DNA from: Squalus acanthias
Taxonomy: Eukaryota
Reading direction: 5' to 3'
DNA length: 64,000 nt
Assembly (NCBI GenBank): GCA_030390025.1
Contig: CM059432.1
Span: 8,618,001-8,682,000, forward strand
Below, piece by piece: positions 10,470 to 64,000 of this stretch; position 1 is the first letter of the stretch, and each line of letters starts with the position of its first letter. Below the pieces are notes generated by a model, which had not been told where the DNA came from, ran no database searches, and worked only from the letters and a program-made list of their open reading frames with translations. Made by a program: the position numbers and the translations under genes.

Positions 10470-10942
10470 ATACATTTTGTTCACATTGTGTTGCTTCATA
10501 TTTCACAGGAGTCAGAGAAAGGAGCTCCATTTACTTTGCCATCTTGCACCACTGTGAAGCTGTGGAAGGCAGCACGCCGTGCGCATACACTCAGAGCGCT
10601 GCTTAATGGCCTCTGACCGCCTGAAGCAAGAAAACCAACAGCATCGCAGCAGCAGTCAGCCTCCCTAACGTGAATCGTCCCCAACATAAGCTATAACCTG
10701 TGTCAGTCATCCAGAACAGTGCGAGCACACAGGGCATGCAATGCAACTGATATGAGCCCCCGGTATACAAAGCGCGGTGAAAGTCATCTCCGAGCAATGC
10801 CACTTCCTGCAGAGCATCCGCTCTGCTTATCTTACATAGAACTTCATCTTCGCTTATTCATGAGCACTGGATTCATAGACAAACTGACCTTCAATGCCAG
10901 TAAGTGTGAGGTGATGCATTTCTGTAAAACAAATAACCGCAG
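10470..10942 (+). repeat. Copy 1 of a ~470-bp dispersed inverted duplication (unclassified 420 bp plus start of an old CR1 fragment)
   Basis: Reverse complement of 51247-51720, about 15 differences by manual count. Confidence 0.95.
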
Positions 10943-17388: not shown

Positions 17389-17591
17389 TATTTCTCTATG
17401 AATGGCCTACTTCTATGTGGATATTCCTATGATTCTTGTGGCCAAGAGAATAATATGGGCAATGTGCTGCAAGGCTTCTGACAGTGTCAAGCTTGACCCC
17501 AGTCAGAAGTTACAAAACAGTCTAGTGAAAACATTCAGAAGGTTTTTCCTGAAGTCTGCAGTGAGATCCTGGTCTCTGCGCAAGGCCTCAA

Positions 17592-17890
17592 TAGATCAGA
17601 GAAAATTTAGATCAGGGCAAATCTAGACCTGGTCAAATCTAGATCTGGTCAAATCTACATTCGGGCAAATCTAGATCAGGGCAAATCTAGATCAGGGCAA
17701 ATCTCGATCAGGTCAAAACTAGAACTGGTCAAATCTAGATCTGGTCAAAACTAGATCAGGTCAAAACTAGGTCTGGTCAAATCTAGATCTGGTCAAATCT
17801 AGATCAGGTCAAAACTAGATCTGGTCAAATCTAGAACTGGGCAAATCTAGATCAGAGCAAATCTAGATCCTGGCAAATCTAGATCTGGCA
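17592..17890. repeat. 16-bp minisatellite ATCTAGATC(A/T)GG(G/T)CAA, left part
   Basis: Visible tandem array; continues at 19106-19180 beyond a CR1 insertion. Confidence 0.95.
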
Positions 17891-19105
17891 AGGTGTGTGG
17901 ATGAGGGTAGTGCAGTTGATGTAGTCTACATGGACTTCAGTAAGGCTTTTGACAAAGTCCCACATGGGAGACTGGTCAAGAAGGTAAGAGCCCATGGGAT
18001 CCAGGGCAATTTGGCACATTGGATCCAAAATTGGCTTAGTGGCAGGAGGCAGAGGGTGATGGTCGAAGGTTGTTTTTGTGACTGGAAGCCTGTGTCCAGT
18101 GGTGTACCACAGGGATCGGTGCTGGGTCCCTTGCTGTTTGTAGTGTACATTAATGATTTAGATATGAATGTAGGAGGTATGATCAGTAAGTTTGCAGATG
18201 ACACGAAAATTGGTGGAGAGGTAAATAGTGAGGAGGGAAGCCTCAGGCTACAGGACGATATAGACGGGTTGGTCTGATGGGCAGAACAGTGGCAAATGGA
18301 ATTTAACCTTGAAAAGTGTGAGGTGATGCATTTTGGGAGGACTAACAAGGCAAGGGAATACACAATGAATGGTAGGACCCTAGGAAGGACAGAGGATCAG
18401 AGGGACCTTGGTGTGCATGTACATAGATCCCTGAAGGCGGCAGGACAGGTAGATAAGGTGGTTAAGAAGGCATATGGGATACTTGCCTTCATTAGCTGAG
18501 GCATAGAATATAAGAGCAGGGAGGTTATGATGGAGCTGTACAAAACACTAGTTAGGCCACAGCTGGAATACTGTGTGCAGTTCTGGTCGCCACACTATAG
18601 GAGGGATGTGATTGCATTAGAGAGGGTGCAGAGGAGATTCACCAGGATGTTACCTGGGCTGGAGCGGTTCAGCTATGAAGAGAGACTGGACAGGCTGGTG
18701 TTGTTTTCCTTAGAGCAGAGAAGGCTGAGGGGGGGACCTGATTGAGGTGTACAAAATTATGAGGGGCATAGATAGGGTAGATAGAAAGGAACTTTTCCCC
18801 TTAGTAGAGGGGTCAATAACCAGGGCGCATAGTTTCAAGGTAAGGGGCAGGCGGTTTAGAGGGGATTTGAGGAAAAACTTTTTCACCCAGAGGGTGGTTG
18901 GAATCTGGAACTCACTGCCTGAAAGGGTGGTAGAGGCAGGAACCCTCACAACATTCAAGAAGCATTTAGATGAGCACTTTAAACGCCATAGCATACAAGG
19001 CTACGGACCACGTGCTGGAAAATGGGATTAGAATAGACAGGGCTTGATGGCCGGCGCAGACACGATGAGCCGAAGGGCCTCTTTCTGTGCTGTATAACTC
19101 ATGAC
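17891..19105 (+). mobile_element. 5'-truncated CR1 LINE
   Basis: [51 protein letters not shown] motifs and CR1 3' UTR. Confidence 0.95.
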
Positions 19106-19180
19106 TCTAGATCAGGGCAAATCCAGATCAGGGCAAATCTAGATCAGGGCAAATCTAGACCTGGTCAAATCTAGATCTGG
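19106..19180. repeat. 16-bp minisatellite, right part
   Basis: Same unit as 17592-17890. Confidence 0.9.
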
Positions 19181-19749
19181 AACTCAGCTTGACACCTATT
19201 GCTCCTAAAAAGATTAACACTCCCTCACTGTTAAAATGAATCTTTGTCTTTCTGAAAATATTTCTTGGCACAGCTGTTAGTGCTGCTGTTGCTCTCATTA
19301 GTCACTTAGTTTCAGTGCTGCATTACAATCCTAGTTTACCAATCACCGGTGGCCTATATCACAACTAATTATTAAACGGTTCAAAGGAAACATGGTTGAG
19401 CAAAACCAAACCTCATAAATTGTTAGGTCAAGAAAACAAGCAAAGCCACCCTTTCCCTCTGCATTAGAATCACTTATAGTTCCTGTTATAAACTTCTCAG
19501 TCCTGCTCTCTAGAACTCTCTCCCAACATCCCTCTCTGGATTCATTTCTTGCTCAATCTTTAAAAACCTTCTCAAAACTAAGGGGGCTAAATTCGGTTGA
19601 TTTGCGTCTCCTATTGGCGCTAACGGGGCACAAATCAACTAGCGCCTGGGCGCGGCGCCGCTAATACATCCCGCAAAATTCTGCTGTAAAGTCTCTTAGG
19701 ATGTTTTCTACATTAAAGGCACCACAGGTATATAAAAGTAAATTGATGT

Positions 19750-51246: not shown

Positions 51247-51720
51247 CTGCGGTTATTTTATTTTACCGAAATGCATCACCTCACACTTACTGGCATTGAC
51301 GGTCAGTTTGTCTATGAATCCAGTGCTCATGAATAAGCGAAGATGAAGTTCGATGTAAGATAAGCAGAGCGGATGCTCTGCAGGAAGTGGCATTGCTCGG
51401 AGATGACTTTCACCGCGCTTTGTATACCGGGGGCTCATATCAGTTGCATTGCATGCCCCGTGTGCTTGCACTGTTCTGGATGACTGACACAAGTTATAGC
51501 TTATCTTGGGGACGATTCACGTTAGGGAGGCTGACTGCTGCTGCGATGCTGTTGGTTTTCTTGCTTCAGGCGGTCAGAGGCCATTAAGCAGCGCTCTGAG
51601 TGTACGCGCATGGCGTGCTGCCTTCCACAGCTTCACAGTGGTGCAAGGTGGCAAAGTAAATGGAGCTCCTTTCTCCGGCTCCTGTGAAATATGAAGCAAC
51701 ACAATGTGAACAAAGTGTAT
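51247..51720 (-). repeat. Copy 2 of the ~470-bp inverted duplication
   Basis: Reverse complement of 10470-10942. Confidence 0.95.
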
Positions 51721-52851
51721 ATTTTAAATTTAGTCTCAGAAAAATTTTCTTTAAAAAAATATAGCAGCAAAACTGAACAGTAATGCAACCGCAACAACAA
51801 CAACAACTTGCATTTATAGAGCGCCTTTAAAGTAGTAAAACGTCCCAGGGCGCTTCATACGAGCGATTATCAAACAAAATTTGGCACCGAGTCACATAAG
51901 GAGATATTAGGACAGGTGACCACAAGCTTGGTCAAAGAGGATGATGTTAAAGACCTCTAACAGGTCACCCCCTCAGTCTTCACTTTTCGAGAGAAAAGAG
52001 CCCCAGCCTGTTCGATCTTTCCTGATATGTATAACCTCTTAGTTCTGGTATTATCCTTGTAAATCTTTTTTTAGCACCGTCTCCAGTGCCTCTATATAAT
52101 TTCTGTAATATTGAGACGAGAACTGTGCACTTATGACACTGCGATCTTTTTAACTTTAATCATCAATAATAAATAACACTATAGAAAAGTATTCCATAAT
52201 AGGAATGCCAATAATATTTAGTAACTTGCAAGTGCTCATTTAGAATTCCCTATGTCCATAATTACTTGCTGTGCTTCATGTAAATAAATTAGTTATTGGA
52301 TTTCTGTTGCCTGGAAGTCTTACTATAAAAGCCTATTATTCATACATAGCCCAAAGTCAATTCATGCAAACAATATTTCATGTCTCAGTACATGATTCTT
52401 CCACTTCCAGTTGCTCAGAGTCATTCCTATAAAACCTTCAGCAAAAAGAAGGGTGAAGATGTTGAAGATGGTGCTGAGATGTTAGGGCAAGGTAGCGTAC
52501 CCACAGTGTTTGAGAGTAAGGGATCTGGTAGGTGTCCATTGTTCTGTAGAACAATGGGCGAACTTTACAGTAATGTCAGGATCTTCTATCTTAGAATTGA
52601 TAGGGTGACCTGTAGGTTTGGATAACCTTTAAATGTGTATTATAGTTGCGTTAGAAGCTATGCTATTAAAATGTAACTGTAACTGCAAGGTATGGTGGGA
52701 AGCTTGACCAAAATCAGACCAAAGCGTAGTGTCAGCATTTAACAGTAGCAGTAGTTGTAATAAAGTTTCCCCACGAAACCTTGAATCAGGAACAATGAAC
52801 AAAGATAATGGTCAAAAATGAGAATTCGCACAACACCAGGTTATAGTCCAA

Positions 52852-53744
52852 GGGGTAAAAATTCAGTTGGTTGCGCCTCCCGTTAGCGCCTTAAGAGGGT
52901 GCTAATGGGGCGCAAAGCCGCTAACGCCCGGGCGCAGCGATGTTTGCGCCGCTCGAGAACTTAATTTGAGATTGTGCGGCGGCGCTAAACTTTACCGCTG
53001 CGACCACCTGCGCGCGCAGATTGTGACGTCATTCCATGGTGCAACGCCCTTGTGGCGCCCCGGAGCGGAAATTGAGTGGCGCCCCCTGCCTTACCGCCTG
53101 GCACATCCAATGACCAGAAGACTGGAACGCTATCAATCGCTGTGGGGCTGGGGGGGGCGCTATTTAAAGGGGGCCTCTTCCTGTCTTTTATTGTTGGTGG
53201 CATTTTTGAACTACGCATTCTGAGAGAGAGAGGGAGAGACTTCTGGAGAGATTCAACGTTGTGTGAAGGAGTTTTGGGTACTGAGCAGCACTTTGCAGGT
53301 TCATTTTGATTTGCCATTCCTTGTATCGATTTAGCAGAGACTGTGGGAGCTGCACTCTGAGCTCTTTGCCTGGTACTCTCCATTGTTCTTTCCAGCACAT
53401 TTGATGTGCAAGTCTCTCCAGGCCGAGATTCAAGGCTGCAATGAACAGGATGTGGATGGAAAGCAAGATTAACCATCCCCTTTAAGAACTGGCCCGTGCC
53501 ATTGTGTGTGTGTTCCATTGCTGACTGACATTACATGAGCTTCGCCAGCACTCTGAGTTAGTGCATCACTCCTTGGCCTTTGCGCCTTAAGACAGGTGTG
53601 CAGCACCTGATTTAGCGCTCCACTCACCTCCCGGGGCGGTAAAAGTGAAGTTTCCAGTCAGTGCCGATAATTAGCGCCAGGCGCTAATATTTGCGTCCAG
53701 ACGATATTTGCGCCCCAAATGGGGCGCGACCTAATTTCTACCCC
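52852..53744. mobile_element. Harbinger-type non-autonomous element, 893 bp
   Basis: TIR GGGGTA(A/G)AAATT, TSD CAA; removal restores TTATAGTCCAACAG. Confidence 0.9.
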
Positions 53745-53763
53745 CAACAGGTTTATTTGAAAT

Positions 53764-53798
53764 TACGAGCTTTCGGAGCGCTGCTCCTTCATCAGGTA
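53764..53798 (-). ncRNA. Minimal type I hammerhead ribozyme
   Basis: TAC-CTGATGA-A-GGAGC agc GCTCC-GAAA-GCTC-GTA. Confidence 0.78.
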
Positions 53799-54114
53799 CA
53801 GTGAGGGAATTCCGAAAGCTCGTAATTTCAAATAAAACTGTTGGACTATAACCTGGTGTTGTGCGACTTTTCATTTTTGTCCACCCCAGTCCAACACCGG
53901 CATCTCCGCATCAAAGATAATGGTAACTGGAGACTGGATAAGATAAACAAAATTGCAGAAAGGCAGATGTAAGGACCTTGGGTCCAGGACAGTTAAACCA
54001 TTGTAAATTTGAGAGACTTCGGTGCGCTGAAGGCTCTCCCCTGCATGCTTGTAATAAAGTTTCTCTCATATCACAGCCTACCCGTGACTCCGATTGGTTT
54101 CTTCCACAACAACT

Positions 54115-54132
54115 TGGCGTAGTCGGCAGGAT
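54115..54132 (+). promoter_or_regulatory. ERV primer-binding site, tRNA-Ser
   Basis: TGGCGTAGTCGGCAGGAT is the 18-nt complement of the vertebrate tRNA-Ser(AGA/TGA) 3' end ATCCTGCCGACTACGCCA. Confidence 0.93.
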
Positions 54133-54301
54133 CCGCTGCTAGTACCAGAACAAGGGCACCGTTCCGGGACCAACAGACAAAGTGGGGTGAGTACGTTCAT
54201 TTATACCACCCAGTAGTTAGGTCTGTGGGCACGGAGCGGTCCCTCGGACTATCAGGGATCTCGAACAATACGGAGTCAGAACGGCTGTCATGTGAGAGAG
54301 A

Positions 54302-54434
54302 TGATGCGGAGATGCCGGCGTTGGACTGGGGTGGACAAATGTGAGAAGTCGCACAACACCAGGTTATAGTCCAACAGTTTTATTTGAAATCACAAGCTTT
54401 CGGAGCGCTGCCCCTTCGTCAGGTGAAGTCACTT
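54302..54434 (-). mobile_element. Short Penelope-type insertion in the ERV leader
   Basis: TSD ATGTGAGAGAGA (54290-301, 54435-46). Confidence 0.85.
54391..54425 (-). ncRNA. Minimal type I hammerhead ribozyme
   Basis: CAC-CTGACGA-A-GGGGC agc GCTCC-GAAA-GCTT-GTG. Confidence 0.78.
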
Positions 54435-54572
54435 ATGTGAGAGAGAGAGAGGGCAACGTTGCAAAGTGGTTGTGGTCGCCGACGGCCAGGTGAGGGCCGG
54501 GGGAGAGAGCTTAACGGGTGTCTCTCGGGGGGTAGGAGACCCCCGCGATTTCTAAAGACTTAAGTAGGTAAG

Positions 54573-55432
54573 ATGGCCGAGGGAAAGCCAGATCCTCAGG
54601 GATCCATAACAGAGTATTTTGTTAAATAAACATGACAAGGTAATAAAAAGAACGGTAAAGGAAGGCTGGGAGCCTGAATGGATTCCCGACCGGCAAAAAG
54701 ACTGGTGGAGCAAGGAAAGCAAAAATAAGGAGGAGAAAGCAATAGTGGTTCATTGCCAGGTCCACCGAAAAATGTGTAAGATGGGAGCGACACAGGAGAA
54801 GGAAAAAAAGGAGTTAGTGGAACAGTTTAAAAAGGCAAAGAAGATAGGCGCCAAGTGTGCCGCTGTAATGAAGATAAGGTCAGCGCAAAGTGGAAGGAAT
54901 GAGAGTGATGAGGGTGATTGGGATCATTTGGAAGAAGAGGCAGCAGAATGGGAGCACCATGATGACGAACCGCCAGATTACGAGATAACTGGTGAGGGTC
55001 TATATCCGTCACTAAATGGATTGGTCGCAGTGACGGAGAGCTAAGTCAGCCCCAATTGAAACCCAACGGAGACAGATCGCTAGCGCAGCTGACCCCCGCC
55101 AATCCACGGATACTGATAACGACCGTACACAAACCCTTTACACCAGGGGAAAAACAACGAATATTGGCGGATCTCCCGGTCCCATGGCAACCCCGAGTTT
55201 TGGCGGAGATTGGAGGAAATGATAGACATACACTGTATGCATCCAAAAGACATACATGTCCTGGGGAAGGCGAAGTGCCCTGGGAATGTATGGGAGAGTT
55301 GTGCCCCGAATGTTCGGGACGGAACTTGGACAGGCTCCTTGGTGGCAGACAGGGACAGCGCCATCAGTACCCTCCCTCACCCCGGATCAGATTTTAGAAA
55401 TAATTAAATTGGCCTCTAAGGCTGATAAATAG
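54573..55432 (+). pseudogene. gag: ERV gag, disrupted and short
   Basis: ATG at 54573 (MAEGKPDPQGS), basic MA-like region, PPDY late-domain-like motif, capsid-like KPFTPGEKQRILADLP; several stops and frameshifts; assigned mainly by position. Confidence 0.7.
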
Positions 55433-56750
55433 GTCGCCTCGGCCCCCTCAGGCAGCTCAGGCGACCCCCGGATAGACACCACAGCATTGTTAGGGGGCCG
55501 GCAGTGTGAGATGTTGGTGGACATGGGAGCGTCTGTATCGATAACCGACCAACCTTTACCAACTTCGAATAAAACACTGTATATAACTGGAGTAGGAGGC
55601 AACTCAGTTAAGGCAAGAAGAAGTGAGTCACAATTGTTGGAATTGGGAGGAATTTTAATACCGGTCCACTTCTGGGTTTGTCCGACTAACAAGGAAACAA
55701 TATTGGGGATTGACATATTAAGAGAAGCGGGGGCAATAATTGATCCAGGGCGGGGGAAAGTTGCGCGGCGGACTGGCAGAGGAAACAGAAAGCACAGCCA
55801 CGGACCGAGAGCCGCAACTCAATATACCACCATGGTGGCCTCCGCCACCCCTATCACACGGGACTGGGCAGCTGAGGGCGTCTTTGGGCTTGTGTGTTCC
55901 CAATTTCCGGAGGTATGGGCTAGACATAAACAGGATTGCGGGAAGGTCGATATGACACCCGTCGTGGTCGAGGGGGAAACTCACAAACCACATAAACAAT
56001 ATCCTATTAAACCAGAGGCGAGATCAGCGGTGCAGGCAATAGTTCACGAACTACTGAAGGAGGGTATATTAAAAAAGACCACTTCAACGCCGAACTCCCC
56101 GGTATGGCCGGTTAGGAAACCGGATGACTCCAGGCGTCTTACGATAGATTATACTGCGCTAAATAAATGCATCCCGAGACTGCACCCAACTGTAGCGAGC
56201 CCGGCAACAATTTCCAATGGTCTTAGCCCAGAACATAACATTTTTACGGTATTGGATGTTTCCAATGGATTTTGGAGTCTGCCTTTGGCTCCAGAGTCAC
56301 AAAGCAAGTTTGCGTTCACTGTGGCAGACCAGCAGTATACTCGGACCCGGCTGCCACAGGGATTCCACAATAGCCCCGCTATATTCCACAAAGCAATGGC
56401 CCAAGCTTTGGCCGGAGTGGAACTGACCCCGTACGGGAGTAGAGTGCTCCAGTACGTGGACGATTTACTGATCGCGTCTACCTCCAAAAAGGGGCACTGT
56501 GGTGCCTTGGTGTGCATACTAGAGGCCCTTCAGAAACAAGGATTGAAGATTAGTCCAAAGAAAGCACAAATTGGGCAGGGGACAGTGCAGTACCTGGGAC
56601 ACACAATTACACAAGGGCACAAAGCTATGTCGGAAGATCAGAGACAGGCAATTAGTGAGATGCCTCGTCCGATTAATGTACAGGGGGTCTGGAAGGTAAT
56701 GGGTTTGTTCAACTACTGTAGCAATTTTATACCTAATTTTGCGCCGATTA

Positions 56751-59146
56751 GAACATAAGAACATGAGAAATAGAGCAGGAGTAGGCCAATCGGCCCCTCG
56801 AGCCTGCTCCGCCATTCAATAAGATCATGGCTGATCTGATCCTAACCTCAAATCTAAAGAACACAAGAAGTAGGAGCAGGACCCGGCCACTCAGCCCCTG
56901 GGCCCGCTCTGCCACCCACAGGGCCCTGACCAATCCGAACTCAGCCTCATGTCCAATTTGCTGCCCGCTCCCTGTAACCCCTAATTCCCTTTACTTCTAG
57001 GAAACTGTCTATTTCTGTTTTAAATTTATTTAATGATGTAGCTTCCACAGCTTCCTGGGGCAGAAAATTCCACAGACCTACTACCCTCTGAGTGAAGAAG
57101 TTTCTCCTCATCTCAGTTTTGAAAGAGCAGCCCCTTATTCTAAGATTATGCCCCCTAGTTCTAGTTTCACCCATCCTTGGGAACATCCTTACCGCATCCA
57201 CCCAATCAAGCCCCTTCACAATCTTATATGTTTCAATAAGATCGCCTCTCATTCTTCTGAACTTCAATGAGTAGAGTCCCAATCTACTCAACCTCTCCTC
57301 ATATGTCCATCCCCTCATCCCCGGATTAACCGAGTGAACCTTCTTTGTACTGCCTCGAGAGCAAGTATGTCTTTTCTTAAGTATGGACACCAAAACTGTA
57401 TGCAGTATTCCAGGTGCGGTCTCACCAATACAACTGCAGCAATACCTCCCTGTTTTTATAATCTATCCCCCTAGCAATAAAAGCCTACATTCCGTTGGCC
57501 TTCTTGATCACCTGCTGCACCTGCATACTAACTTTTTGATTTTCTTGCACTAGGACCCCCCAGATTCCTTTGTACTGCAGTACTTTCCAGTTTCTCGCCA
57601 TTAAGATAATAACTTGCTCTCTGATTTTTCCTGCCAAAGTGCATAACCTCACATTTTCCAATATTGTATTGCATCTGCCAAATCTCCGCCCACTCACCCA
57701 GCCTGTCTATATCCCCTTGTAGGTTTTTTATGTCCTCCTCACGTTCTACTTTCCCTCCCATCTTTGTATCATCTGCAAACTTTGATATGTTACACTCGGT
57801 CCCCTCCTCCAAATCGTTAATATAGATTGTAAAGAGTTGGGGACCCAGCACCGACCCCTGCGGAACACCACTGGCTACTGGTTGCCAGTCCGAGAATGAA
57901 CCATTTATCCCAACTCTCTGCTTCCTGTTAGATAACCAATCCTCCACCCATGCCAGAATATTACCCCCAATCCAGTGATTTTTTATCTTGAGCAATAATC
58001 TTTTATGTGGCACCTTGTCGAATGCCTTCTGGAAGTCTAAATACACTACGCCCACTGGTTCCCCTTTATCCACCCTGTACGTTATCTCCTCAAAGAACTC
58101 AAGCAAAATTTGTCAGACATGACTTCCCCTTCATAAAGCCATGCTGACTTTGTCCTATTAAATTATGTTTATCTAAATGTTCCGTTACTGTCTCCTTAAT
58201 AATAGACTCCAAAATTTTACCCACCACAGATGTTAGGCTAACTGGTCTATAATTTCCAGCCTTCTGCCTACTACCCTTTTTAAATAAGGGTGTTACATTA
58301 GCAGTTTTCCAATCTGCCGGGACCTTTGCTGAGTCCAGGGAATTTTGGAAAATTATTACCAAAGCATCCACAATCCCTACTGCCACTTCCCTCAAGACCC
58401 TAGGATGTAAGCCATCAGGTCCAGGGGATTTATCCGCCTTGAGTCCCATTATTTTACTGAGTACCAATTCCTTAGTGATTTTAATCATATTTAGCTCCTC
58501 CCCGCCTAGAGCCCCCTGTTTGTCCAGTGGTGGGATATTCTTAGTGTCCTCTACCGTAAAGACTGAAACAAAATATTTGTTCAGCATTTTTGCCATCTCC
58601 ATGTTTCCCACCATTAATTTCCCGGTCTCATCCTCTAAGGGACCTACGTTTGCCTTAGCCACCCTTTTTCTTTTTATATAACTATAGAAACTCTTGCTAT
58701 CTGTTTTTATATTTTTTGCTAATTTATTTTCATAATCTATCTTCCCTTTCTTAATCAATCCTTTAGTTACTTTTTGCTGTCTTTTGAAGACTTCCCAATC
58801 TTCTATCCTCCCACTAAGTTTGGCTACCTTATATGTCCTTGTTTTTAGTCGGATACTATCCTTAATTTCTTTACTTAACCACGGATGGCTGTCATTTCTT
58901 TTACACCCTTTTTTCCTCAGTGGAATTTATTTTTTTTGAAAGTTGTAAAATAACTCCTTAAATGAACACCACTGCTCATGTACCGTCTTACCCTTTAATC
59001 TATTTTCCCAGTCCACTTTAATCAATTCCGCTCTCATACCATCATAGTCTCCTTTATTCAAGCTCAGTACGCTTGTTTGAGAACCAACCTTCTCACCCTC
59101 TAATTGGATATGGAATTCAACCATGTTATGGTCACTCATTCCACTC
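56751..59146 (-). mobile_element. 2.4-kb CR1 LINE inserted in ERV pol
   Basis: ORF2 motifs [28 protein letters not shown] duplicated at 56747-50 and 59147-50; pol reads NFAPI-MAPTQ across it. Confidence 0.96.
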
Positions 59147-60142
59147 ATTATGGCACCAACACAGAATTTGATAAAAGGGGGTAAGGCCCCGCTAGAATCA
59201 GTGGACTGGAAACGGGAGCAAGAAAAAGCATACAGAATGATTAAACTCGCTCTAACCTCGGCCCCGGCACTGGGTCTCCCGGATATGTCAAAACCCTTTC
59301 ACACTCATTGCGATGGTGAGGGGGCATTTTATAATGCAGCAGTGACTCAAACCCACGGTGACCGCCACCGGCCCGTGGCCTATTACTCAACACGGCAATC
59401 CGCGGTAGCAGCGGGATTCCCCCGCTGCGTGGCAGCACTGGACTGCGCCGCTTGGGCGGTCCAGGTGAGTGAACCGGTGGTGACGGCCGGGCAATTGATC
59501 TTGCACACCCAACACACTCTGGTAGAGCTACTTAATACTGGAAGGTTAAGAGCAGTATCAGCTAGCCGAAGAGCAGCATGGGAAGCGGTACTTATCCCAA
59601 AGGATAAGTCCGTACAGATTGTTAAAGATGGTGGATTAAACCCTGCGGGCGGCATATTAACGGAAGGAGAAGAACATCAGTGTGAACTAGCGGGAGAGGA
59701 TGAGGAAAGTTGTGGGGTAAAAGATAGCCCACTTGAAGGGGGGTGTGAAGTGATGTTTGTCGACGGTTCGAGGAAATTTGTAAGCGGTACACCCCATACG
59801 GGATGGGCAGTCGTGAGCAAGGACGGTCGGGTGGTCCGACAAGGGGCTCTGGAAGGAGGGGACTCCACCCAGGTAGCGGAACTGGCAGCTCTTATCGAAG
59901 CATTACGGGCTTGTCAAGGGAAACGAGTGAATATTTACACCGATAGTCGGTACGCGTTCGGCGTAGTCCACCATTATATGGCCTCATGGGCCCGAAGGGG
60001 GTTTATAACATCCTCAGGGGGGGTCACATTAAACATGAAGTGCCAGTAAAGGCACTGGTGGAGGCTGCAGGGCTCCCACTGGAGGGAGCAGTAGTCAAGG
60101 CAAAAGCACATCAGAAGGGGGACGATTGGATACAGAAAGGAC

Positions 60143-60303
60143 TGTCCAGGGAGAGTATAAATACTCGGGCATGGGCCCAGCTTGCTTAGGACATTCCTCA
60201 ACAGGAACTAGTGAAGGACACAACTAGATCTCCATGTTGAAAAACAGTTGATTAAAGCTTTGTTTAACGCTTAGAGCAAGTGCCTAGTAGTTTTCTTACG
60301 TCA
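60143..60303 (+). other. Foreign LTR-like fragment replacing the end of RNase H
   Basis: TATAAA at 60156, ATTAAA at 60251, ends in CA; interrupts pol after KAHQ...QKG. Confidence 0.5.
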
Positions 60304-61556
60304 CTCCCTTCTCCGGCCCCGGTGGCAGCTTGCGCTATCGGACCAGAGGAAGTAAATACGGTGCAACTGCACAAAGATACGTCAAACGAAGAGAGAGAGG
60401 TATGGGAAAGACAAGGGGCAAAGGAAGATGTGACTGGGGTATGGAAGTTAGAAGGGGCAGACCAGGTGGTAGCCCCCGAGTGTATCAGGCAGAATTTACT
60501 AGAAATCTATCATGGGGATATACATCAGGGAAAGCATGGGATGCTGCACTCACTAAGGAGATGCTGGTGGTGGCCGGGCATGGGCAGGGACGTGACAAAG
60601 CACTGTCAGAGGTGCCTGATCTGTGCGCAGTATAACCCAGGAAAGGGGATAAATGTTCGTATGGGAAATCAACCGAGACCGAAGGGACCATGGGGAAACC
60701 TACAAATCGCTTTCACCGGTCCCCTTCCAAAGAGTAGGGGAAAGACCTACTGCCTGGTAATAATGGATCACTTCACTCGCTGGGTAGAGGCCTTCCCAAC
60801 ACAGAAATTGCACCGCCGATACGGCCGCAAGAATCTTGGCAGAGGAGGTGATACCCCGGTGGGGGGTCCCCCTACAAATAGATTCTGACCAGGGGACCCA
60901 CTTTATGGGTAGGGTCATGAAGATGGCATGTCAGTTATTGGGGGTAAAGCAGAGGTTCCACATACCTGACCACCCTCAGAGTTCCGGAATGGTGGAACGT
61001 ATGAATAGAACCCTGAAAACAGCTATAGCAAAAGCGATTGTGAGCACGGGTAAGAACTGGGTGGATGTCCTCCCGACCCCCCAACCGGACAATAGGACTG
61101 AGTCCATCTGAATTAATGACTGGGAGGGCTATGAGATTACCAGAAGGGGTGATAGAAGGGTGTAGTGAAACAGGGCCGCTGAGGGATAGAATTACACGGT
61201 ATGTTGCGGAGTGATGTAAACAGCTTCAAGGGATGAAAGTGGAAGTAAAGCAGCAGCAAGAAGCGACAGATCGACACGGGCACGGGCCTGAACCCGAGTC
61301 ATCGGGGCTCCCAACGGTGGGAGACAGGGGAATGGTAAAAGGGGTGCCGTCCAAACCGGGACTGGCGCCTCGGTGGTCTGGGCCTTACACGGTCCTAATG
61401 ACCAGCGATACATGTGTGTGTGTTTGGACATACGAAAGGGGGTAGGTGGAAACATTGGTCCCAGGTTAAGCCGTGTGACTCACATTCTGTTTCTACCAAC
61501 AGGAAAGCTAGCAGCAGATCTCTTAATTACTTTGTTTCAGATAAACCTATCTCACA

Positions 61557-63665
61557 ATGGGGGCTTGGTGGACGGCCGTGACAGCGATCACCCTCCTGAC
61601 AATTACGGTAGCGTGGAAGGCGCCCACCGTGCACATCGATAAAAGTACTTGTTTGCATCCAGGACAATACATGCAACTGCCACAGGGGGGAAAAGGGGAA
61701 TGGGTAAAGAAACCCAATATATGGATCACGGACCAGGTCACCGCACGTACCCATACGACCAAGGTATGGAAAATAAATCCCAAATGTAATATGGGACAAG
61801 GATACTGGGACCCTATCTGTGGCAGCAACCATGAACTGTCCACCCCCGGACAACCAGTCCGATTGGCACGGCCTCCCTGCCCATCACAAAGGGTAAGATC
61901 GGGGTACGGCGCCCCGGGCGGTTGGTCATATGAACTTGAGGTCCGTCCCGGCACCACGCGAGCAGACTCCTTCAACTCGGTCTGGATCCCCGTTATCGGA
62001 CCCAGAAGTGACAATTATACCCAACTACAAACTAGTGTGGATACTGATGGAGATATAACGGTCACCGGCATATATGATGAGGCCACGGGACTGGGACGTT
62101 GGTTATACTCCTGCTCGCCGCACGAGGGGCAGCGCGGAAAAACGATAGGTTTGGTCATCAGTACCGTCAACATTATAGCAGGGTGGACTAAATTACCCCC
62201 ATTCATTTGGGAACCAGGACTTGAGGGACAATATTGCCAAGAATTGTGTAGCGATGTTCTTAAGCGGTTGGGATGTACTGATATAAGATGCTTTCATTTA
62301 ACAACATGTGGATATCAAAAGCCGTCGCGGTGTCCCACCACGGTGCCACCTCCAACGGATGGCATGATCAGGGTCGGGGGCCCGAAGGCACTCTTACATG
62401 ATGTAACTATGGTCACTTTAGAAGTAACCTATAACCTGAGCAGTATAGTGCCGGCGTTAGAGGCCAATTGTGGTGATCACCCAGCATCAATTACTTGGGC
62501 AAAGCATAAATTGCAGCGATTACTCAGTGATTATAAGGACCGCATAGCCCCCGAAGTAGGGGCCTCCAAGGGGCGACAGGGACGGAGTATATTAGGGGAA
62601 GTGGGGGGCTTGTTTGGAAGTGCCAACTCGGTCCTAAATTCATGGCAAGTCACGGGCCTGGATAGCTATGCCTCCAGGGTGGCGCAGGAAAGCGCCAAGG
62701 GCCTGCGCTTCACAGCTCAGGGAACGGAGTATGCGCTTACGGCAGTAGAAGTGCTTGGAACCGGGTTACAGAGAGGTATAGAGGACCTAGGGAAAGTCGT
62801 AATAAAGGCGACTGATTTGCAGTCCAAGGGCCGAGCATGTGTCATGCTGGCTCGGGACTTGATTGACAGTGTTGAATCAGACATTGAAGACATCAGGTTT
62901 GGGACGGTGCCCCGTCATGCGCAGAAGGAAGTCAGCAGTCTCAATCTGATTAACTGGGAGGAAGATAGACAGGAGCTCTTGGTAACCCGCCCAGCAGGCG
63001 GGGGGACTGCGGATGCATTTAGATTTCTAATGATGATGCCACAGGGGCACAAGAATGGGACATATCAGGGGGGATGTAAAGTAGAGTCTCTGGGAGTGGT
63101 CAGAGGCGAATCGGCATACCGGGTGGGTACCCGTGGATACGTAGTACCTGGCAAGAATGGCATCCTCCTGATGACCACGGATGAGTGCTGTACTGAATCA
63201 GAGCACTACATCGTGTGTACCTGTAACACCCTGAAACCGATAGATGAGGGCTCAGCAGTGGTGGTGATGGTAGAGCCTCTGGAAGGAGTCTTTCGGGCGA
63301 TTCAGGCATCTCTGACTCAGTGGTGTTTTCTGACCGACGAGAAGAACTACCTCTACGGAGGATTGGTATGTGCAAATAATCATACGTTTTGCCTTCAAGT
63401 TTCAGACTCTCTCACCGTGGGAGATTTCCATCTCCCAGGCAGAACCCTCGCCGGCCTGGTCTTCAGCCCATGGTGGGATGACGAGTTGAGTGTGGATGAT
63501 ACACCAGGGAGGGCCGCTAGGGTGGCGGTGGAACAGGCCTTGAAAGCCACAATGGAATACATTACACGGAGTAAACAGGCCCTCACAAGAGGAAGAGTGG
63601 AGGTGGACTTGACCAAAAGAACGGCTAGAGGCTGGGAGCTAAAAGGCAGGGACCTTCAGCCATAG
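61557..63665 (+). CDS. env: ERV envelope glycoprotein, 702-aa open ectodomain
   Basis: Kozak ACAATGG, N-terminal signal peptide, Cys-rich SU, RQGR cleavage site (62574-85), fusion-peptide-like SILGEVGGLFG, heptad region, Cys-rich domain; follows integrase. Confidence 0.9.
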   Translation: MGAWWTAVTAITLLTITVAWKAPTVHIDKSTCLHPGQYMQLPQGGKGEWVKKPNIWITDQVTARTHTTKVWKINPKCNMGQGYWDPICGSNHELSTPGQPVRLARPPCPSQRVRSGYGAPGGWSYELEVRPGTTRADSFNSVWIPVIGPRSDNYTQLQTSVDTDGDITVTGIYDEATGLGRWLYSCSPHEGQRGKTIGLVISTVNIIAGWTKLPPFIWEPGLEGQYCQELCSDVLKRLGCTDIRCFHLTTCGYQKPSRCPTTVPPPTDGMIRVGGPKALLHDVTMVTLEVTYNLSSIVPALEANCGDHPASITWAKHKLQRLLSDYKDRIAPEVGASKGRQGRSILGEVGGLFGSANSVLNSWQVTGLDSYASRVAQESAKGLRFTAQGTEYALTAVEVLGTGLQRGIEDLGKVVIKATDLQSKGRACVMLARDLIDSVESDIEDIRFGTVPRHAQKEVSSLNLINWEEDRQELLVTRPAGGGTADAFRFLMMMPQGHKNGTYQGGCKVESLGVVRGESAYRVGTRGYVVPGKNGILLMTTDECCTESEHYIVCTCNTLKPIDEGSAVVVMVEPLEGVFRAIQASLTQWCFLTDEKNYLYGGLVCANNHTFCLQVSDSLTVGDFHLPGRTLAGLVFSPWWDDELSVDDTPGRAARVAVEQALKATMEYITRSKQALTRGRVEVDLTKRTARGWELKGRDLQP

Positions 63666-63883
63666 GCTCAGGCCAAAGACAGCCTGACTGGTGGGACATA
63701 GGTAGAATGGCAGCCGCCATCGCCTCCATGCTCGTCCTTATTATCAGTATATGCATCTGTTGCTATCAAAAATGGATGATATCCCAAGTGGTGAAGATGT
63801 CAAATAGGGGAAACGCCCCGGTGTCAGAAGCCAAGGTGCCACTCTCAGAGACTGGGGAAAAGTGGGACGCGTATGCTCTATAA
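63629..63883 (+). pseudogene. env: Frameshifted Env C-terminus (membrane-proximal region, TM helix, cytoplasmic tail)
   Basis: -1 frame reads RLGAKRQGPSAIGSGQRQPDWWDIGRMAAAIASMLVLIISICICCYQKWMISQ...DAYAL* with TAA at 63881-83. Confidence 0.88.
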
Positions 63884-64000
63884 ATCTGGCCGACTGGGTC
63901 CCAAGCACAACCAATGTCACTAGGACATCGGTGAGGCTGGAAGAGGGCCATGTAATTTATGGATTTGACACTTGCGGGAGTCCAGTTGGATCCCTGGACA

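What the first reader, a model, noticed from the sequence alone, without database searches (positions are those of the whole stretch)
52460..64000. Near-complete provirus of an unusual lineage: tRNA-Ser primer, dual RNase H, YVDD/LPQGFHNSP RT
Seen: after removing five identifiable insertions, a colinear LTR-PBS(Ser)-gag-pro-pol-env genome can be rebuilt. The tether plus second RNase H marks a true retrovirus rather than an env-bearing Gypsy element. LPQGFHNSPAIF and the GPY-type integrase tail look class III/spuma-related. Inference: SnRV-like, ERV-S-like or lokiretrovirus-like; I cannot decide between these by eye.
Basis: partly seen in the sequence, partly recalled or inferred. Interest (0 to 1): 0.75.

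Follow-up and report, generated by a model that had tools for sequence, protein, structure and literature searches.

The report
Dead shark retrovirus with F-like envelope
This is a broken, inherited retrovirus in a shark-like genome whose enzyme genes likely branch near the base of the mouse-leukaemia-virus group, and whose envelope is predicted to fold like the fusion protein of foamy and measles-type viruses, while close relatives in the same genome carry a different envelope or none.

Summary
The provirus is real. The 5' LTR starts at 52598, not 52460. It has a tRNA-Ser(AGA) primer site, gag-pro-pol-env with tether plus RNase H, and five insertions. The 3' LTR lies just past the window (LTR distance 0.034). 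It is more broken than reported: about 540 nt of gag are gone and pol and env are frameshifted.
It is a true retrovirus. It is not a lokiretrovirus (RT motif) and lacks foamy-virus features. SnRV is the best named RT match (43%), but RT+tether+RNase H trees put it in a shark-cyprinid-herring clade beside class I (gamma/epsilon). RT alone cannot exclude SnRV.
The Ser primer and the GFHNSP RT motif are already in print for an elephant-shark ERV. What is unusual is the Env: no Pfam family, predicted foamy/paramyxovirus F fold, apparently paired with the same Pol clade in goldfish. Sister families at 62-68% RT identity carry gamma-type Env or only a remnant. Six of 11 other copies examined lack RT but keep env. 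The scan noted an SnRV-like fragment elsewhere in this genome.

The parts
52593..52597 (.). left target-site copy (degenerate 5-bp duplication; the right copy beyond the window appears one base short)
   Evidence: clean 5-bp duplications in 2 of 4 other copies with both ends readable
52598..54111 (+). 5' LTR (TG...CA; 477-499 nt in other copies), interrupted, with a ~97-nt deletion near 53995
52813..53911 (.). insertion 1: host repeat with a 13-bp duplication inside the LTR
52852..53744 (.). insertion 2: element with terminal inverted repeats nested in insertion 1 (90% copy at L031:6964-7863)
54115..54132 (+). primer-binding site for tRNA-Ser(AGA)
54301..54444 (.). insertion 3: same repeat family as insertion 1, opposite orientation, in the leader
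54573..55432 (+). gag remnant, frameshifted, ~540-nt deletion near 55330; ends in a TAG in frame with pro-pol
55433..56750 (+). protease and reverse transcriptase (LPQGFHNSPAIF, LQYVDD), one open frame
56751..59146 (-). insertion 4: antisense LINE fragment (CR1-type label recalled) splitting RT from the tether
59147..60141 (+). tether and RNase H, frameshifted near the end
60142..60305 (.). insertion 5: 164-nt piece of a young host repeat, replacing ~47 nt of RNase H
   Evidence: (40 scored of 646 candidates, 98-100%)
60306..61480 (+). integrase (H2C2, core, GPY tail), several frameshifts and a stop
61557..63883 (+). env: 702-aa open ectodomain frame (signal peptide, RQGR site, fusion peptide, heptads, beta-rich domain); membrane anchor lies in another frame after a frameshift; predicted F-like fold
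63884..64000 (+). 3' untranslated stretch; the purine tract and 3' LTR follow beyond the window (L031:2083-4029)

Best explanation
It is a defective endogenous retrovirus whose Pol likely belongs to a fish-and-shark lineage branching between the SnRV/class III grade and class I (gamma/epsilon), and whose Env is predicted to be an F-like class I fusion protein. Shown: anatomy, breaks, primer site, related copies, sister families with other Env types. Inferred mechanism: the ancestor primed reverse transcription on tRNA-Ser(AGA), made Pol by read-through of the gag stop, integrated with a 5-bp duplication, and entered cells with a furin-cleaved F-like Env. After germ-line entry the family spread, partly as RT-less, env-keeping copies mobilised in trans, and this copy then decayed. 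The F-like Env is likely the older state of the clade; sister families likely swapped it for gamma-type Env or lost it.
For: RT tree: window in a 13-row clade, 95/91, outside the class I rows. RT+tether+RNase H: 8-row clade 99/98, joined to class I plus basal fish rows at 100/99, with SnRV, frog/coelacanth class III-like rows and foamy outside. The mixture-model quick tree gives the same join at 99. The integrase tree agrees weakly (89/90). AU rejects clade+SnRV on the longer alignment (p 0.012). Env: no Pfam family; top of 48,161 chains is foamy Env 8rm0 (Z 8.4, rmsd 5.8, 256 aligned), and 9 of the next 10 rows are paramyxo/pneumovirus F (Z 6.0-7.0). Foldseek and Atlas leads point the same way. 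Env relatives: 40 proteins at E<=0.001, named ones from cyprinids, catshark, white shark, clupeiforms and turtles. Sister families L038 and L041 have TLV_coat Env (E 1e-15) unrelated to the window's (E 1.3-1.5); L043/L044 keep only a short anchor-like remnant. Pooled pN/pS is similar in env (0.54), RT (0.61) and tether-RNase H (0.51).
Against: RT alone has little power: AU does not reject grouping with SnRV (p 0.06 and 0.11), foamy (0.23), ERV-L-like rows (0.065) or a basal place beside the outgroup (0.10). RNase H and integrase are reported to be swapped between lineages (PMC7947760), so the longer tree may mix histories. The 32-row tree used for the AU test was unstable, with the single foamy row pulled inward. 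RT and Gag match SnRV best among named viruses. No named epsilon, loki, ERV-L/S or CmiERV sequence was in my trees. The Env model is middling (pLDDT 60, pTM 0.48) and only one chain reaches Z 8. The goldfish linkage rests on accession order and contig length, not on DNA I read.
Confidence: 0.65

Rival explanations
1. An ordinary SnRV-like (clade Huo, class III) ERV, as already reported from elephant shark and zebrafish, with an Env inherited along with SnRV-like Pol.
For: Best named RT match is SnRV (43%, 222 bits). Sister Gags match SnRV Gag (E 2e-12 to 5e-8). Window Env against SnRV Env scores 47 bits against a maximum of 27.7 in 200 shuffles. RT-only AU p 0.06-0.11. CmiERV lineage I has the same primer site.
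Against: separate it from SnRV; AU p 0.012. The Env-family profile does not detect SnRV Env (hhalign probability 0.4; not among the top 8 rows against shuffles). SnRV has a different primer site and a 1134-aa env frame plus a 3' ORF.
Confidence: 0.22
2. A basal member of class I (clade Mu, epsilon-like) already sampled in large surveys, for example Pol-LE or Pol-LGE.1 of Chen et al.
For: Joined to class I. WEHV1 and WDSV Env are among the fold matches. Chen et al. found gamma-type-Env ERVs in 6 cartilaginous fish.
Against: AU rejects clade + 11 class I rows on RT (p 0.017; that test also forces other rows out). RT identity to gamma rows is only 35-40%. Their supplementary trees were not seen.
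Confidence: 0.1
3. A lokiretrovirus, which would be the first from a cartilaginous fish.
For: F-like Env and tether plus RNase H fit the loki description; 0 of 6 chondrichthyan genomes had loki.
Against: The loki RT rows read have PFGY[SA]NSPA where the window has LPQGFHNSPA. The window falls inside the sampled retroviruses, above foamy. F-like Env also occurs in foamy viruses (PMC11468914).
Confidence: 0.02
4. A foamy-like ERV, or an env-bearing Gypsy element.
For: Top PDB RT match by sequence is foamy (175 bits against MLV 169, Ty3 96); top Env fold is foamy; RT-only AU does not reject foamy.
Against: Two CCHC knuckles in an undeleted copy and in sister Gags; gag-pol in one frame; tether and RNase H score 15-25 bits against foamy but 69-89 against gamma; Ty3 scores far lower.
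Confidence: 0.01

Closest known systems
Snakehead retrovirus (SnRV; L076, identified by its match to the SnRV RT row in the PMC7947760 supplement)
   Same: LPQGFH.SP and LQYVDD RT motifs, gag-pol stop in frame, related Gag C-terminus, weak Env similarity around the cleavage site
   Different: Only 43% RT identity; different primer site; larger Env and a 3' ORF; not sister in longer Pol or integrase trees
CmiERV lineage I, elephant shark (Han 2015, PMC4422223)
   Same: Cartilaginous host, identical 18-nt Ser primer site, LPQGFHNSP motif, LTR distance 0.033 (read by eye)
   Different: Gamma-type Env resembling that of the sister families L038/L041; its RNase H looks different by eye; not placed in my trees
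XtERV-S (Yedavalli et al. 2021, PMC8278194)
   Same: tRNA-Ser(AGA/TGA) primer, 5-bp duplication, gag-pol stop in frame
   Different: ERV-L-related gag/pol, dUTPase region, no NC, gamma-like TM. Frog Pol rows that may be its kin (label inferred) group apart, and their RNase H is only 27% identical
Lokiretroviruses (Wang and Han 2021, PMC7947760)
   Same: F-like Env, tether plus RNase H
   Different: RT motif, tree position (sister to all retroviruses), none found in 6 chondrichthyan genomes
Foamy virus Env / paramyxo- and pneumovirus F (Fernandez et al. 2024, PMC11468914; PDB 8rm0)
   Same: Predicted fold of the fusion core
   Different: 7% identity; Gag, Pol and genome plan are orthoretrovirus-like

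Membership tests
Retroviridae (ERV) | paired LTRs, PBS, gag-pro-pol-env | tested here: met
Retroviridae (ERV) | tether plus second RNase H | tested here: met
Retroviridae (ERV) | RT inside Retroviridae rather than Metaviridae | tested here: met
   100/99 against 3 outgroup rows, 100/100; RT-only AU for a basal place p 0.10
SnRV-like / clade Huo | Pol groups with SnRV | tested here: inconclusive
   not rejected on RT, rejected on RT+tether+RNase H (p 0.012, unstable tree)
SnRV-like / clade Huo | Env homologous to SnRV Env | tested here: inconclusive
   pairwise 47 bits against shuffle maximum 27.7; profile tests negative
Lokiretrovirus | loki RT motif PFGY[SA]NSPA | tested here: not met
Lokiretrovirus | RT in the loki clade, sister to all retroviruses | not testable with these tools
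   no stored loki sequence; viral collection scan empty
Lokiretrovirus | F-like Env | tested here: met
   predicted fold; no PF00523 sequence hit
Spumaretrovirinae | Gag without CCHC knuckles, Pol in a separate frame | tested here: not met
Spumaretrovirinae | RT groups with foamy viruses | tested here: inconclusive
   apart; AU p 0.23 on RT; foamy row unstable
Gamma/epsilon (class I) | Pol nested inside class I | tested here: not met
   outside; no named epsilon reference
Gamma/epsilon (class I) | gamma-type Env with ISD and CX6CC | tested here: not met
   no TLV_coat hit, while sister Envs hit
ERV-S / XtERV-S / ERV-L | tRNA-Ser primer and 5-bp duplication | tested here: met
ERV-S / XtERV-S / ERV-L | Pol groups with ERV-L/S; dUTPase | tested here: inconclusive
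   no named reference; AU with two ERV-L-like rows (label recalled) p 0.065; no dUTPase hit
Described Repbase/Dfam family | match to a library consensus | not testable with these tools
   no such library on hand

The most novel reading that the evidence does not exclude
An unnamed genus-level retrovirus lineage of sharks, carps and herrings is the sister group of all class I retroviruses and kept the ancestral F-like (foamy/paramyxovirus-type) envelope. One shark genome records, among its close families, the retention of that envelope, its replacement by gamma-type Env, and its loss, giving a direct snapshot of how orthoretroviruses changed fusogen.
Probability: 0.3. Interest if true: 0.75.

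Novelty: new variant of a known kind. Interest (0 to 1): 0.5.

Why it matters
Wang and Han (PMC7947760) list four open scenarios for how retroviruses got F-like versus gamma-type envelopes. A Pol clade close to the class I stem that holds F-like Env in shark and bony fish, with gamma-type and env-less sisters in one genome, would favour F-like Env as the older state and gamma-type Env as a repeated later gain. It would also show an Env family that Pfam and gamma-type screens miss. The single copy in the window is a dead fossil with no sign of host use.

Tried and rejected
Env against solved structures by sequence: 0 hits; profile search gave only designed or helical proteins. The full-length Env model was too poor to rely on (pLDDT 49.7; searches are leads only). 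Window RT found no relatives in viral contigs. Two homologue searches did not return SnRV. A loki motif scan found nothing in viral contigs or the own genome, but a Gypsy motif also found nothing there, so one search is uninformative. A metagenome scan for a Pol-env linkage returned one 1.6-kb distant locus. No RNA holder listed; this says nothing on expression. Orthologous insertion: contigs of organisms B and E carry the unique flank and 9 LTR bases, then a LINE-type tail; this is below the tool's 31-base bridging rule, so a hint only; organisms G and C did not cover the junction. Env domestication: not supported, pN/pS matches pol (simple counts, all pairs share the window copy). No tRNA gene in the window. 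Row P0005 moved between trees, probably chimeric, and was dropped. Class II rows fell inside class I, likely a long-branch effect, and were left out of later trees. RT rows were thinned from 242 to 76 and then to 52 with added references.
Full report
Setting. The window is G000:C8:8618001-8682000 in a 3.7-Gb genome. A shark host is inferred from the closest named relatives (Mustelus, Heterodontus, Scyliorhinus, Carcharodon).

Observation. The element is colinear with other genomic copies at about 87-98% identity. The 5' LTR runs 52598-54111, and the primer site at 54115-54132 matches host tRNA-Ser(AGA) genes. Pfam finds protease, RT, tether, RNase H and integrase, but nothing for the 706-aa env frame. 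Five insertions are confirmed: a repeat in the LTR with a 13-bp duplication, an inverted-repeat element nested in it, a second copy of the first repeat in the leader, a 2.4-kb antisense LINE in pol, and a 164-nt piece of a young repeat in RNase H. The copy also lacks about 540 nt of gag, 97 nt of LTR and 47 nt of RNase H, and gag, pol and env are frameshifted. The 3' LTR lies just beyond the window.

Age and copies. The LTR distance is 0.034 (K2P, 398 sites); five other copies give 0.021-0.041. With the two rates quoted by Han 2015 that is about 8 or 77 million years. An LTR search gave 161 candidates, of which 40 were scored, at 94-100%. An Env search gave 112 matches (144 of 283 candidates scored), roughly 55 separate places by my count. 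The RT search showed only 4 places at 92% or more among 150 scored of 15,039 candidates. Of 11 other copies mapped, 6 lack RT, and a seventh (C6) lacks RT in the stretch fetched; all 11 keep env sequence (4 were picked by RT and 7 by env, so the share is biased; one RT-picked locus is the C9 copy with both LTRs). The 6 share a 2-kb stretch without a long frame in place of the gag end and most of pro (85-96%), which suggests a non-autonomous subfamily spread in trans. Clean 5-bp target duplications occur in 2 of 4 copies with both ends readable.

Pol placement. SnRV was retrieved as L076. RT identity is 43% to SnRV, 36-37% to foamy, 35-40% to gamma, 52% to a minnow element and 62-68% to sister families in the same genome. 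The RT tree (52 rows, 255 columns) puts the window in a 13-row clade at 95/91, apart from SnRV and outside class I. AU tests on RT reject only the union with 11 class I rows (p 0.017) and not SnRV, foamy, ERV-L-like rows or a basal place. With tether and RNase H added (42 rows, 638 columns; the window contributes only its open pro-RT frame, intact sisters carry the rest), the clade is 99/98 and joins class I plus basal fish rows at 100/99. The mixture model agrees (99, quick tree, 30 rows), the integrase tree agrees weakly, and AU rejects clade+SnRV (p 0.012) on a 32-row tree that was otherwise unstable. Named members come from shark, minnow, goldfish, dace and herring. No named epsilon, loki, ERV-L/S or CmiERV sequence was in these trees; the alpha, beta, delta, lenti and Gypsy labels rest on recalled motifs. 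Loki is excluded by motif only.

Env. It has a signal peptide, an RQGR site, a fusion peptide, heptads and a cysteine-rich beta domain, with no ISD or CX6CC. Forty relatives were found among 1.84 billion representatives; the named ones are from cyprinids, sharks, clupeiforms and turtles. The core model (pLDDT 60) matches foamy Env best (Z 8.4, rmsd 5.8, 256 aligned), and 9 of the next 10 rows are paramyxo/pneumovirus F. BFVD adds mononegavirus, baculovirus F and WEHV1 Env matches, so F-like Env seems to be shared by several fish retroviruses. Similarity to SnRV Env is significant pairwise but not by profile. Goldfish Pol and Env of this kind have consecutive accessions on contigs of the same length, and an unnamed 11,357-nt contig length recurs for a Pol and an Env relative. 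Sister families L038 and L041 carry gamma-type Env; L043/L044 have only a remnant, and the L044 copy has identical LTRs. The simplest reading is F-like Env as the older state, with replacement and loss in the sisters; the direction is inferred, not tested with a rooted Env tree.

Mechanism. Priming on tRNA-Ser, read-through of the gag stop and a 5-bp duplication follow from the anatomy and from known orthoretrovirus biology (XtERV-S passages). This copy cannot encode working Gag, Pol or anchored Env. pN/pS gives no sign that env was kept by the host.

What is known. SnRV-like ERVs in elephant shark: PMC4422223 (main text part 1 of 2, supplement file 1 part 1 of 3); its lineage I has the same primer site and a gamma-type Env, read by eye. 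Clade Huo: PMC6001957, PMC8922424, PMC4977317 (passages). Loki: PMC7947760 (main text parts 1-3 of 4; supplement parts 1, 8, 68 and two searches). Env-Pol recombination in anamniotes: bioRxiv 2021.11.23.469661 (parts 1-3 of 6 and passages; supplements not seen, and its Pol-LE/LGE clades may include this lineage). XtERV-S: PMC8278194 (passages). Foamy Env as F-like: PMC11468914 (passages). Also passages of PMC10435555, PMC8672886, PMC12287698, PMC12583693 and bioRxiv 2023.10.26.564294. Eight searches showed no paper describing this Env family or naming this Pol clade; the library lacks most subscription papers, Repbase and Dfam.

Verdict. Real, dead, and a true retrovirus. The F-like Env on a Pol close to the class I stem, beside sisters with swapped or lost Env, makes it a new variant of a known kind. 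Interest 0.5.

Noticed in passing
L129-L140 (six loci on C17, C20, C3, C152, C10): RT-less, env-keeping subfamily with a shared ~2-kb non-coding replacement of the gag end and most of pro.
   Followed up: partly
L038-L045, L141-L143: At least three young sister ERV families in this genome (LTR pairs 99-100% alike in the three checked), with gamma-type Env or only a remnant; their primer sites look like other tRNA-Ser isoacceptors (recalled).
   Followed up: partly
window 60142-60305; L152, L153: Piece of a ~224-nt young repeat, 646 candidates, scored copies 98-100% alike; family not identified.
   Followed up: partly
G000:C3:116.3-118.4 Mb: About a dozen env fragments of this family clustered within ~2 Mb, likely segmental duplication.
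   Followed up: no
G000:C889:338-866 kb: Array of about 67 matches to the tRNA-Ser(AGA) 3' end, often ~1.7 kb apart.
   Followed up: no
window 1100 to about 6500: Long satellite of ~40-nt units with AG runs.
   Followed up: no
window 17560-17930 and 19090-19196: 16-nt tandem repeat arrays.
   Followed up: no
window 10470-10933 and 51257-51720: 464-nt inverted pair, 97% alike, 40 kb apart.
   Followed up: no
BFVD matches: WEHV1 and WDSV Env and a fish filovirus glycoprotein score with the F-like model, hinting that these envelopes are F-like too.
   Followed up: no
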